From assembly GCF_003334815.1 (NCBI RefSeq), contig NZ_QOWO01000009.1: DNA of 64,000 nt. One strand, 5' to 3'. Below are positions 54,043 through 57,000 of the stretch, one piece after another. A program made the position numbers. This DNA comes from Escherichia coli. Lineage in GTDB: Bacteria > Pseudomonadota > Gammaproteobacteria > Enterobacterales > Enterobacteriaceae. The stretch's first letter is position 1; each line of letters opens with the position of its first letter.

Positions 54043-57000
54043 TAAGGACACGATAATGACGATTTTTGATAATTATGAAGTGTGGTTTGTCATTGGCAGC
54101 CAGCATCTGTATGGCCCGGAAACCCTGCGTCAGGTCACCCAACATGCCGAGCACGTCGTTAATGCGCTGAATACGGAAGCGAAACTGCCCTGCAAACTGG
54201 TGTTGAAACCGCTGGGCACCACGCCGGATGAAATCACCGCTATTTGCCGCGACGCGAATTACGACGATCGTTGCGCTGGTCTGGTGGTGTGGCTGCACAC
54301 CTTCTCCCCGGCCAAAATGTGGATCAACGGCCTGACCATGCTCAACAAACCGTTGCTGCAATTCCACACCCAGTTCAACGCGGCGCTGCCGTGGGACAGT
54401 ATCGATATGGACTTTATGAACCTGAACCAGACTGCACATGGCGGTCGCGAGTTCGGCTTCATTGGCGCGCGTATGCGTCAGCAACATGCCGTGGTTACCG
54501 GTCACTGGCAGGATAAACAAGCCCATGAGCGTATCGGCTCCTGGATGCGTCAGGCGGTCTCTAAACAGGATACCCGTCATCTGAAAGTCTGCCGATTTGG
54601 CGATAACATGCGTGAAGTGGCGGTCACCGATGGCGATAAAGTTGCCGCACAGATCAAGTTCGGTTTCTCCGTCAATACCTGGGCGGTTGGCGATCTGGTG
54701 CAGGTGGTGAACTCCATCAGCGACGGCGATGTTAACGCGCTGGTCGATGAGTACGAAAGCTGCTACACCATGACGCCTGCCACACAAATCCACGGCAAAA
54801 AACGACAGAACGTGCTGGAAGCGGCGCGTATTGAGCTGGGGATGAAGCGTTTCCTGGAACAAGGTGGCTTCCACGCGTTCACCACCACCTTTGAAGATTT
54901 GCACGGTCTGAAACAGCTTCCTGGTCTGGCCGTACAGCGTCTGATGCAGCAGGGTTACGGCTTTGCGGGCGAAGGCGACTGGAAAACTGCCGCCCTGCTT
55001 CGCATCATGAAGGTGATGTCAACCGGTCTGCAGGGCGGCACCTCCTTTATGGAGGACTACACCTATCACTTCGAGAAAGGTAATGACCTGGTGCTCGGCT
55101 CCCATATGCTGGAAGTCTGCCCGTCGATCGCCGCAGAAGAGAAACCGATCCTCGACGTTCAGCATCTCGGTATTGGTGGTAAGGACGATCCTGCCCGCCT
55201 GATCTTCAATACCCAAACCGGCCCAGCGATTGTCGCCAGCTTGATTGATCTCGGCGATCGTTACCGTCTACTGGTTAACTGCATCGACACGGTGAAAACA
55301 CCGCACTCCCTGCCGAAACTGCCGGTGGCGAATGCGCTGTGGAAAGCGCAACCGGATCTGCCAACTGCTTCCGAAGCGTGGATCCTCGCTGGTGGCGCGC
55401 ACCATACCGTCTTCAGCCATGCACTGAACCTCAACGATATGCGCCAATTCGCCGAGATGCACGACATTGAAATCACGGTGATTGATAACGACACACGCCT
55501 GCCAGCGTTTAAAGACGCGCTGCGCTGGAACGAAGTGTATTACGGGTTTCGTCGCTAAGTAGCCGCATCCGGTATGTAACGCCTGATGCGACGCTGACGC
55601 GTCTTATCTGGCCTACACGCTGCGATTTTGTAGGCCGGATAAGCAAAGCGCATCCGGCATTCAACGCCTGATGCGACGCTGGCGCGTCTTATCAGGCCTA
55701 CGCGCTGCGATTTTGTAGGCCGGATAAGCAAAGCGCATCCGGCATTCAACGCCTGATGCGACGCTGGCGCGTCTTATCAGGCCTACGCGCTGCGATTTTG
55801 TAGGCCGGATAAGCAAAGCGCATCCGGCATTCAACGCCTGATGCGACGCTGGCGCGTCTTATCAGGCCTACGCGCTGCGATTTTGTAGGCCGGATAAGCA
55901 AAGCGCATCCGGCATTCAACGCCTGATGCGACGCTGGCGCGTCTTATCAGGCCTACACGCTGCGATTTTGTAGGCCGGATAAGCAAAGCGCATCCGGCAC
56001 GAAGGAGTCAACATGTTAGAAGATCTCAAACGCCAGGTATTAGAAGCCAACCTGGCGCTGCCAAAACACAACCTGGTCACGCTCACATGGGGCAACGTCA
56101 GCGCCGTTGATCGCGAGCGCGGCGTCTTTGTGATCAAACCTTCCGGCGTCGATTACAGCGTCATGACCGCTGACGATATGGTCGTGGTTAGCATCGAAAC
56201 CGGTGAAGTGGTTGAAGGTACGAAAAAGCCCTCCTCCGACACGCCAACTCACCGGCTGCTCTATCAGGCATTCCCCTCCATTGGCGGCATTGTGCATACG
56301 CACTCGCGCCACGCCACCATCTGGGCGCAGGCGGGTCAGTCGATTCCAGCAACCGGCACCACCCACGCCGACTATTTCTACGGCACCATTCCCTGCACCC
56401 GCAAAATGACCGACGCAGAAATCAACGGCGAATATGAGTGGGAAACCGGTAACGTCATCGTAGAAACCTTTGAAAAACAGGGTATCGATGCAGCGCAAAT
56501 GCCCGGCGTTCTGGTCCATTCCCACGGCCCGTTTGCATGGGGCAAAAATGCCGAAGATGCGGTGCATAACGCCATCGTGCTGGAAGAGGTCGCTTATATG
56601 GGGATATTCTGCCGTCAGTTAGCGCCGCAGTTACCGGATATGCAGCAAACGCTGCTGGATAAACACTATCTGCGTAAGCATGGCGCGAAGGCATATTACG
56701 GGCAGTAATGACTGTATAAAACCACAGCCAATCAAACGAAACCAGGCTATACTCAAGCCTGGTTTTTTGATGGATTTTCAGCGTGGCGCAGGCAGGTTTT
56801 ATCTTAACCCGACACTGGCGGGACACCCCGCAAGGGACAGAAGTCTCCTTCTGGCTGGCGACGGACAACGGGCCGTTGCAGGTTACGCTTGCACCGCAAG
56901 AGTCCGTGGCGTTTATTCCCGCCGATCAGGTTCCCCGCGCTCAGCATATTTTGCAGGGTGAACAAGGCTTTCGCCTGACACCGCTGGCGTTAAAGGATTT

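What the first reader, a model, noticed from the sequence alone, without database searches (positions are those of the whole stretch)
55560..56000. Expanded 85-bp BIME tandem array between araA and araD
The araA-araD spacer is 454 bp and consists almost entirely of about 5.2 head-to-tail copies of an 85-bp unit built from inverted REP palindromes. By my recollection the K-12 MG1655 spacer is 284 bp, which would make this allele exactly two units (170 bp) longer, while every other intergenic distance I could compare matches K-12. The array sits inside the araBAD transcript, so copy number could affect araD expression, mRNA processing or DNA gyrase/IHF binding.
Basis: partly seen in the sequence, partly recalled or inferred. 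Interest (0 to 1): 0.4.

Follow-up and report, generated by a model that had tools for sequence, protein, structure and literature searches.

The report
Rare five-unit araA–araD REP array
The gap between araA and araD holds a well-known E. coli repeat element (a BIME-2 array of REP hairpins) with five 85-bp units instead of the three in K-12, which is a rare allele of a known copy-number polymorphism and has no demonstrated effect.

Summary
Window 55564-55999 is an 85-bp tandem array of 5.1 copies (98% match) that fills 436 of the 454 bp between the araA stop (55558) and the araD ATG (56013). MG1655 has 284 bp here, so the window is exactly two units longer. The units read A-B-B-B-C in the window and A-B-C in MG1655, and the extra two are perfect copies of the internal unit B.

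Each unit is a GTAG-Y REP, a 7-nt linker, a Z2-CTAC inverted REP and a 13-nt linker. That is a BIME-2, with the same plan as REP325/naRNA4. The K-12 araD-araA BIME is already a published TnpA(REP) substrate, and BIME-2 copy number is known to vary between strains.

Of 5,426 complete E. coli genomes, about 1,719 have at least 3 units, 15 have at least 4, and 3 have 5. The window is not K-12, because MurE has T137 and the yabP allele is non-K-12, so its allele is an independent occurrence.

The most likely origin is in-register unit gain by slippage or unequal sister exchange, or possibly by TnpA(REP). Stronger attenuation of araD is plausible but untested. The IHF suggestion is not supported. 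An assembly artefact cannot be excluded without reads (about 10%).

This is a known kind of variation and of low interest.

The parts
54056..55558 (+). araA (L-arabinose isomerase) CDS; stop codon TAA at 55556-55558
   Evidence: ORF list. Identical sequence is annotated araA in Stbl4 and MG1655. Start and stop codons checked.
55559..55572 (+). Degenerate half-REP (GTAG plus only the 3' arm CGCATCCGG of a Y REP), directly after the araA stop. In the RNA fold this arm pairs with the 5' arm of the first Z2 REP, so the first stable hairpin starts 6 nt after the stop codon.
   Evidence: Sequence; RNA fold.
55564..55648 (+). Unit A, the first 85-bp unit. It differs from unit B at 6 positions.
   Evidence: Unit decomposition; TRF.
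55649..55903 (+). Three identical internal units B (55649-55733, 55734-55818, 55819-55903). MG1655 has one B, so two of these are the expansion.
   Evidence: Exact matches with 0 mismatches. Allele series A-B-C, A-B-B-C, A-B-B-B-C.
55904..55999 (+). Unit C (55904-55988; equals B except G>A at 55957) plus an 11-nt partial unit (55989-55999) that completes the last Y REP.
55581..55956 (+). Five Z2-type inverted REPs, each 36 nt including the 3' CTAC, at 55581-55616, 55666-55701, 55751-55786, 55836-55871 and 55921-55956.
   Evidence: Coordinates and sequences verified. 35/36 identical to the Z2 units of REP325 in MG1655. Each folds as a hairpin.
55630..55998 (+). Five Y-type REPs, each 29 nt including the 5' GTAG, at 55630-55658, 55715-55743, 55800-55828, 55885-55913 and 55970-55998. 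The last ends 3 nt before the araD Shine-Dalgarno.
   Evidence: Same GTAGGCCGGATAAG...GCATCCGGC arms as the REP325 Y units, with a 5-nt shorter apex. Hairpins in the fold.
55633..55953 (+). Four Rfam naRNA4 (RF02564) matches, each a head-to-head Y-Z2 pair: 55633-55698, 55718-55783, 55803-55868, 55888-55953.
   Evidence: cmscan 60.2 bits against a gathering score of 59.5. The number of matches scales with units: 2 in MG1655, 3 in XL1-Blue, 0 in a 1-unit allele.
56002..56708 (+). araD Shine-Dalgarno AAGGAG (56002-56007) and araD CDS (56013-56708).

Best explanation
This is the resident BIME-2 element of the araA-araD spacer, a tandem array of Y/Z2 REP hairpin pairs. The window carries a rare long allele, A-B-B-B-C, with five 85-bp units (10 REPs plus a half REP). 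K-12 carries A-B-C. The two extra units are exact copies of the internal unit B.

They most likely arose by in-register gain of whole units through homology between neighbouring near-identical units. The candidate processes are replication slippage or unequal sister-chromatid exchange. The alternative is the rolling-circle-like amplification proposed for the REP-associated transposase TnpA(REP)/RAYT. The sequence shows the gain of whole units directly. The mechanism is inferred.

In the araBAD mRNA every REP is predicted to fold as a hairpin. By analogy with other REP arrays, the array should protect the upstream araB-araA part from 3' exonucleases and partly attenuate transcription into araD. 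Going from 6 to 10 hairpins would at most strengthen this upstream bias. This functional step is inferred and not shown.
For:
- Unit-by-unit comparison gives A-B-C (MG1655, DH1, LR-03, 50EVAW), A-B-B-C (GM4792, XL1-Blue, JX21CE35, FACU 2024) and A-B-B-B-C (window, Stbl4, XL10-Gold, CP080620). No junction scar or linker change appears in any of them.
- The 4-unit allele comes from several unrelated submitters, including two natural isolates with their own flanking alleles. Unit gain at this locus is therefore real.
- The anatomy fits BIME-2: GTAG-Y, 7 nt, Z2-CTAC, 13 nt. It has the same plan as REP325, and the Z2 is 35/36 identical. Rfam naRNA4 matches reach the gathering score.
- Ton-Hoang et al. 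2012 (PMC3333891) define BIME-2 and state that copy number at a locus varies among strains. They used araD-A BIME oligonucleotides from MG1655 to show TnpA(REP) cleavage and strand transfer that assembles multiple REPs.
- RNA folding gives the window spacer -231.5 kcal/mol (z = -8.5) and the MG1655 spacer -142.2 kcal/mol (z = -6.0). Each REP forms its own hairpin in the centroid.
- For REP325 (12 hairpins), a 2026 preprint reports upstream stabilisation plus partly Rho-dependent attenuation. The Rho dependence was seen only with the full array, not with 2-4 hairpin fragments.
Against: - No reads are available, so the unit count in the window cannot be verified independently.
- The only other records with 5 units have neighbouring accession numbers (CP080620, CP081008, CP081009). 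Canonical assemblies of the same lineage have 3 units (DH1).
- BL21(DE3) and BL21-RIPL records with nearby accession numbers show a 4-unit array with homogenised units, A'-C-C-C. The reference has A'-B'-C. That needs more than one simple event and could point to a pipeline effect.
- Nothing here distinguishes slippage from TnpA(REP) action.
- There is no expression data for araA or araD in any allele.
Confidence: 0.8

Rival explanations
1. Assembly artefact. The true allele has 3 or 4 units, and the assembler or polisher miscounted near-identical 85-bp units.
For: - The 5-unit allele occurs in only 3 of 5,426 complete genomes, all with adjacent accession numbers.
- Reference assemblies of related lab strains have 3 units.
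- BL21 records with nearby accession numbers show an oddly homogenised 4-unit array.
- The window has a G-run one base shorter than every other record compared (63386), a typical homopolymer error.
Against: - The window is not one of those records. It lacks their sgrR and rluA SNPs and carries non-K-12 murE and yabP alleles plus a unique IS150 junction.
- Its consensus is otherwise clean, with 1 SNP and no indel against MG1655 over 63 kb.
- The edge-specific variants of units A and C are preserved, as expected for a real in-register duplication.
- A 454-bp array is spanned by single long reads, and short-read assembly usually collapses such arrays rather than expanding them (general knowledge).
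- 4-unit alleles are reported by unrelated submitters.
Confidence: 0.1
2. Selected regulatory allele. The expansion was favoured because a longer REP array changes the AraA:AraD ratio or local supercoiling in a useful way.
For: REP arrays bias expression toward the upstream gene, and the effect depends on array length for REP325. BIME-2 elements are preferred gyrase cleavage sites (PMC6379681).
Against: - Alleles with 4 or more units are very rare (15 of 5,426). About half are in laboratory cloning or expression strains that are not selected on arabinose.
- The extra units are identical to one another, so the events are recent and have not spread.
- Lowering AraD relative to AraA/AraB should be harmful on arabinose, because araD mutants accumulate toxic L-ribulose-5-phosphate (established genetics, from my knowledge).
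Confidence: 0.05
3. Import by recombination. The 5-unit allele was acquired from another strain by horizontal exchange and did not arise in situ.
For: The ara region is a mosaic in some strains. JX21CE35 and FACU 2024 have K-12-type araA-araD with divergent thi-araB flanks.
Against: The flanks of the window's array are identical to K-12-type sequence for 55 kb to the left and 7 kb to the right. The only known donors would be K-12 cloning strains that carry SNPs the window lacks.
Confidence: 0.05

Closest known systems
The araD-araA BIME of E. coli K-12 MG1655 (source of substrates B315/B316 in Ton-Hoang et al. 2012, PMC3333891)
   Same: Same locus, same flanks, same unit sequences A, B and C, same REP types and linkers.
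   Different: MG1655 has 3 units (284-bp spacer, 6 REPs). The window has 5 units (454 bp, 10 REPs). The two extra units are copies of B.
REP325 / naRNA4 (BIME-2 between yjdM and yjdN; Rfam RF02564; Qian et al. 2015, PMC4550694; preprint 10.64898/2026.03.23.713779)
   Same: Same architecture of GTAG-Y, linker, Z2-CTAC, linker repeated in tandem inside an operon between two co-oriented genes. The Z2 is 35/36 identical. Rfam naRNA4 matches each Y-Z2 pair at 60.2 bits.
   Different: REP325 has a 100-bp unit with 6 copies (12 hairpins), longer linkers and a Y REP 5 nt longer. HU binding, processing into naRNAs and the attenuator/stabiliser role were shown for REP325 only, not for the ara array.
BIME-1 (Y - L linker with IHF site - Z1; also called RIP/RIB)
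   Same: Built from inverted REP pairs with GTAG/CTAC feet.
   Different: BIME-1 is single-copy, uses Z1, and has a long conserved L linker with an IHF site. Here the copies are tandem, the REP is Z2, the linkers are 7 and 13 nt, and there is no IHF core match.
REPIN/RAYT (TnpA(REP)) system
   Same: The Y-Z2 doublets are the kind of REP pair recognised by TnpA(REP). The K-12 ara BIME is cleaved and recombined by it in vitro.
   Different: No tnpA(REP) gene lies in the window, and nothing in the sequence shows that the enzyme made this expansion.
Tandem-repeat (VNTR) copy-number change by slipped-strand mispairing or unequal exchange
   Same: Whole-unit, in-register gains and an allelic series of 1, 2, 3, 4 and 5 units across strains.
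   Different: The units are themselves palindromic REP pairs, which can extrude hairpins and are substrates of a dedicated nuclease. The route may therefore differ from that of ordinary VNTRs.

Membership tests
BIME-2 | Extragenic position, between genes | tested here: met
   The array lies wholly between the araA stop (55558) and the araD start (56013).
BIME-2 | REPs of 30-40 nt that form imperfect palindromes with a conserved GTAG (or CTAC on the inverted copy) at the foot (definition in PMC3333891) | tested here: met
   Five 29-nt GTAG-Y REPs and five 36-nt Z2-CTAC REPs. Inverted-repeat arms found. Hairpins in the RNA folds. The Y REP is 1 nt under the stated 30-40 nt range.
BIME-2 | Composed of y and z2 REPs in alternating inverse orientation | tested here: met
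   The orientation alternates. Typing was done by direct comparison with REP325, which the literature describes as Z2 + Y units: Z2 is 35/36 identical and the Y arms are identical with a shorter apex. Rfam naRNA4 matches reach the gathering score. The published consensus figure was not available as text, so typing is by comparison and not against the consensus itself.
BIME-2 | Short linkers (S and s/l/r), with no long L linker carrying an IHF site | tested here: met
   The linkers are ATTCAAC (7 nt) and RCGCTGCGATTTT (13 nt). WATCAANNNNTTR has no match in 55559-56012. Assignment to the named s/l/r classes was not made.
BIME-2 | Multiple tandem copies, well conserved within a locus, with the number varying between strains | tested here: met
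   5.1 copies at 98% match. Alleles of 1 to 5 units occur in other genomes.
BIME-2 | Bound and cleaved by DNA gyrase in vivo | not testable with these tools
   Literature only: gyrase cleavage sites are over-represented in a subset of BIME-2 elements, mostly in y REPs (PMC6379681). The ara array is not named in the passages read.
Substrate of TnpA(REP)/RAYT | Cleavage at iREP and linker C|T sites and strand transfer by TnpA(REP) | not testable with these tools
   Shown in vitro for oligonucleotides from the MG1655 araD-A BIME (PMC3333891). The window's units are identical to those of MG1655.
naRNA4 (Rfam RF02564) | Score at or above the family's gathering threshold | tested here: met
   Four matches at 60.2 bits against 59.5, only just above threshold.
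naRNA4 (Rfam RF02564) | Processed two-hairpin RNA that binds HU and condenses the nucleoid | not testable with these tools
   No data for the ara array. The nucleoid role of REP325 itself is disputed by the 2026 preprint.
BIME-1 | Single Y-L-Z1 unit with an IHF site in the L linker | tested here: not met
   The copies are tandem, the REP is Z2-type, the linkers are short and there is no IHF core match.

The most novel reading that the evidence does not exclude
The K-12-type ara BIME-2, whose units are nearly identical, may gain units on a laboratory timescale. The dated pedigree DH1 (3 units), XL1-Blue (4) and XL10-Gold/Stbl4 (5) would place these gains in strains whose vendor genotype is recA1 (my knowledge; not verified in these assemblies). 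That would be an in-vivo record of RecA-independent BIME-2 amplification, by slippage or by TnpA(REP).

Array length may also be capped in nature because long arrays attenuate araD and make cells arabinose-sensitive. That would explain why alleles with 4 or more units are 0.3% of genomes and why about half of them are in cloning or expression strains never grown on arabinose.
Probability: 0.12. Interest if true: 0.45.

Novelty: already known. Interest (0 to 1): 0.18.

Why it matters
It matters little on its own. The element, its locus and this type of copy-number variation are all documented.

The modest value lies in four points:
- At 5 units, the locus is at the top of its observed range among 5,426 complete genomes.
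- The allelic series of 1 to 5 units, with otherwise identical K-12-type flanks, is a natural set for testing whether REP-array length tunes the downstream/upstream expression ratio in an operon. A 2026 preprint on REP325 raised that question.
- Lowering AraD relative to AraA/AraB has a known toxic phenotype, so the locus gives an easy read-out.
- The excess of lab strains among long alleles is either a cheap way to measure BIME-2 amplification rates or a warning about tandem-repeat counts in one batch of assemblies.

Tried and rejected
- Two JGI metagenome scans found nothing. One pattern required three consecutive B-type units. The control pattern was the ordinary K-12 B-C junction. Because the control also returned 0, the collection does not inform on this locus. 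An earlier attempt failed on pattern length and another on a busy queue.
- I tried to test the reliability of the Stbl4 batch by locating REP325 in Stbl4 through coordinate extrapolation. The fetched region was adeD-rfa, so that chromosome is rearranged relative to MG1655 and the check was dropped.
- A paper search for accessions CP081009, CP081008 and CP080620 found none. The sequencing method of those records is therefore unknown.
- Bachellier et al. 1997 (PMC1207841), the primary paper on BIME polymorphism, is not held. The supplements of PMC3333891 are not held. The statement on copy-number variation is cited from the main text of PMC3333891.
- A paper search for araBAD mRNA and REP found nothing specific to this spacer.
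- The IHF idea was rejected.
- An internal promoter or intrinsic terminator in the array was rejected at consensus level.
- The idea that the window is one of the three 5-unit lab records, or any K-12, was rejected.
- Ordinary BLAST ranking could not count long alleles, because 3-unit genomes cover the query with two overlapping pieces. I solved this with an array-only query and E-value cut-offs that demand an HSP of at least 4 units or at least 3 units.
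Full report
**1. The observation**

Tandem Repeats Finder finds a single array at 55564-55999. Its period is 85, with 5.1 copies, 98% matches, no indels and score 823. The repeat finder gives copies spaced exactly 85 nt apart. The consensus unit matches four times with at most 1 mismatch, where shuffles give none.

The araA stop codon is at 55556-55558 and the araD ATG at 56013. The spacer is therefore 454 bp, and the array fills 436 bp of it. In MG1655 (NC_000913.3), araD ends at 66550 and araA begins at 66835, giving 284 bp. The window is thus 170 bp, exactly two units, longer.

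**2. Anatomy**

Split at the unit boundary, the window reads A-B-B-B-C plus 11 nt. A differs from B at 6 positions. The three B units are identical. C equals B except for one base.

In the register of the REPs, each unit has four parts:
- GTAG plus a 25-nt imperfect palindrome, the Y REP
- ATTCAAC, a 7-nt linker
- a 32-nt imperfect palindrome plus CTAC, the inverted Z2 REP
- RCGCTGCGATTTT, a 13-nt linker

That makes five Y and five Z2 REPs. There is also a half Y directly after the araA stop codon. The last Y ends 3 nt before the araD Shine-Dalgarno sequence.

This is the definition of a BIME-2 given by Ton-Hoang et al. 2012 (PMC3333891): y and z2 REPs in inverse orientation, short linkers, multiple tandem copies.

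REP325 has the same plan with a 100-bp unit in 6 copies. The ara Z2 is 35/36 identical to the REP325 Z2. The ara Y has the same arms and a 5-nt shorter apex.

Rfam's naRNA4 model, built on REP325, matches each Y-Z2 pair at 60.2 bits against a gathering score of 59.5. It matches four times in the window, twice in MG1655, three times in XL1-Blue and not at all in a 1-unit allele.

The IHF core consensus has no match in the array. No sigma-70-like promoter or intrinsic-terminator-like motif is found.

As RNA, the window spacer folds to -231.5 kcal/mol (z = -8.5). The MG1655 spacer folds to -142.2 kcal/mol (z = -6.0). Each REP forms its own hairpin in the centroid. G and C counts are equal at 132 each.

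**3. What the window is**

Left of the array, 55.5 kb match MG1655 with one SNP. Right of it, 7.4 kb are identical.

The SNP makes MurE T137, whereas MG1655 and DH10B have I137. T137 is the common E. coli allele, indexed in 46,525 blocks of the assembly collection.

The 15-bp pentapeptide-repeat array in yabP/yabQ is 45 bp longer than in all K-12 records examined. It matches natural ST10-like isolates such as LR-03 and 50EVAW, which are otherwise almost identical to the window here and carry 3 ara units.

The last 75 bases of the window are an IS150 end inserted in yabP. No RefSeq complete genome has that junction. I therefore infer that the window comes from a very close relative of K-12, not from K-12 itself, and not from any record in the collection.

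**4. How common the allele is**

Ordinary ranking cannot count long alleles, because 3-unit genomes cover the query with two overlapping pieces. I used an array-only query with E-value cut-offs that demand a minimum HSP length.

| Units required | E-value cut-off | Genomes of 5,426 |
|---|---|---|
| at least 3.1 | 1e-110 | 1,719 |
| at least 4.1 | 1e-150 | 15 |
| 5.1 | seen in the same rows | 3 |

- The three 5-unit records are Stbl4 (CP081009), XL10-Gold (CP081008) and a record labelled TOP10 (CP080620).
- A systematic sample of the ranking shows the remaining genomes have 2.1 units, 1.1 units, or 1.1 units plus a 54-nt G/C-rich palindromic insert.
- The 4-unit K-12-type allele A-B-B-C occurs in GM4792, XL1-Blue, JX21CE35 (chicken, China) and FACU 2024 (sewage, Egypt).
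- Three natural lineages (PT62/LP5-1, 33F4/32F4/33E, TB06052) have four diverged units plus the 54-nt insert, giving a 423-bp spacer.

The window's 454 bp ties for the longest spacer seen.

**5. Caveat on the other 5-unit records**

The three records share DH1-lineage markers that the window lacks: an sgrR internal stop and an rluA variant. DH1 itself has 3 units.

The 'TOP10' record has an intact ara-leu region. True DH10B lacks everything from rapA' to cra', including araBAD. That record is therefore mislabelled or mixed up.

Six of the eight lab-strain records with 4 or more units have neighbouring accession numbers and probably share one submitter. Two of them, BL21(DE3) CP081489 and BL21-RIPL, show A'-C-C-C. 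The reference BL21(DE3) and the B/r-derived ara region of MC4100 have A'-B'-C. That needs more than one simple event.

This could be real recurrent change in commercial strains or a pipeline effect. I could not resolve it. No paper cites the accessions, and a cross-check at REP325 failed because the Stbl4 chromosome is rearranged.

Those assemblies are otherwise exact over 40 kb around ara.

**6. Mechanism**

What is shown:
- The expansion is an in-register gain of two perfect copies of unit B, with no scar.
- A graded series of 3, 4 and 5 units exists on identical flanks.

What is inferred:
- The gain came from misalignment between near-identical neighbouring units, either replication slippage or unequal sister exchange.
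- The published alternative is TnpA(REP). In vitro it cleaves and recombines araD-A BIME oligonucleotides and can add REPs (PMC3333891).
- The data do not separate these routes.

**7. Function**

Nothing here measures function. The literature gives four leads:
- REP arrays between co-oriented genes bias expression toward the upstream gene. REP325 stabilises yjdM and attenuates yjdN about 8-fold. Its partial Rho dependence was seen only with the full 12-hairpin array, not with 2-4 hairpin fragments (preprint 10.64898/2026.03.23.713779).
- BIME-2 elements are preferred gyrase cleavage sites (PMC6379681).
- REPs within 15 nt of a stop codon are reported to affect translation of the upstream gene (cited in 10.1101/2024.07.17.603846). 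Here the first hairpin starts 6 nt after the araA stop, but that is the same in every allele.
- Going from 6 to 10 hairpins could therefore lower araD relative to araA. Because araD loss makes cells arabinose-sensitive (established genetics, my knowledge), very long arrays may be selected against. This would fit their rarity but is untested.

**8. Verdict**

The IHF part is not supported, and the expression effect is only a hypothesis. The element, the locus and this kind of polymorphism are already known. The 5-unit allele is simply its rarest and longest known form. I put the risk of an assembly artefact at about 10%.

Noticed in passing
window 63427-63568 (and 63386-63560): A 15-bp tandem array (9.5 copies) forms the pentapeptide-repeat part of the yabP/yabQ (espY1) pseudogene. 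It is 45 bp (3 units) longer than in every K-12 record compared and carries several SNPs. It matches natural ST10-like isolates LR-03 and 50EVAW almost exactly. This is a second repeat-length difference from K-12 in the window and a sign that the genome is not K-12.
   Followed up: partly
window 63926-64000: The window ends with the terminus of an IS150 copy inserted in yabP/espY1. None of the 5,426 RefSeq complete E. coli genomes has this junction.
   Followed up: partly
window 28818 (murE, minus strand, 27740-29227): This is the only SNP against MG1655 in the 55.5 kb left of the array. It gives MurE T137, the widespread E. coli allele, whereas MG1655 and DH10B have I137. I137 looks like a K-12-specific change.
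   Followed up: partly
window 63386: A G-run is one base shorter than in all other records compared (K-12 strains, LR-03, 50EVAW, JX21CE35). It could be a real 1-bp deletion or a homopolymer sequencing error.
   Followed up: no
L006 (NZ_CP080620.1, labelled 'TOP10') vs L013 (DH10B NC_010473.1): The RefSeq record called TOP10 has intact leu and ara operons and DH1-lineage markers (sgrR internal stop, rluA variant). Genuine DH10B-type strains lack rapA'-cra', including araBAD. The record appears mislabelled or mixed up with a Stbl4- or XL-type strain.
   Followed up: partly
L010 (BL21(DE3) CP081489) and L036 (BL21-RIPL CP083273) vs L012 (NC_012971.2) and L035 (MC4100): These two B-strain records have a 4-unit array with homogenised units (A'-C-C-C). 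The reference BL21(DE3) and the B/r-derived ara region of MC4100 have A'-B'-C. This is not a single simple duplication. It is either gene conversion plus gain or an assembly or polishing effect.
   Followed up: partly
L018, L020, L021, L022 (natural isolates), between the last REP and the araD Shine-Dalgarno: Many natural alleles carry a 54-nt G/C-rich palindromic insert (TTTTCCCCCTCGCCCCTTTGGGGAGAGGGCCGGGGTGAGGGGAAACGACCTCTC) just upstream of the araD ribosome-binding site. It resembles the boxC repeat family (from memory; not tested).
   Followed up: no
L034 (Stbl4 NZ_CP081009.1 1040000-1089000): About 340 kb from ara, the Stbl4 record holds the adeD-rfa region. In MG1655 that region lies at about 3.8 Mb. 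The chromosome as assembled therefore carries a large rearrangement relative to MG1655.
   Followed up: no
L006, L007, L008, L011 (window-equivalent 46144 and 62595): All DH1-lineage records share an sgrR nonsense mutation (C>T) and an rluA missense change. These are useful lineage markers. The window has neither.
   Followed up: yes
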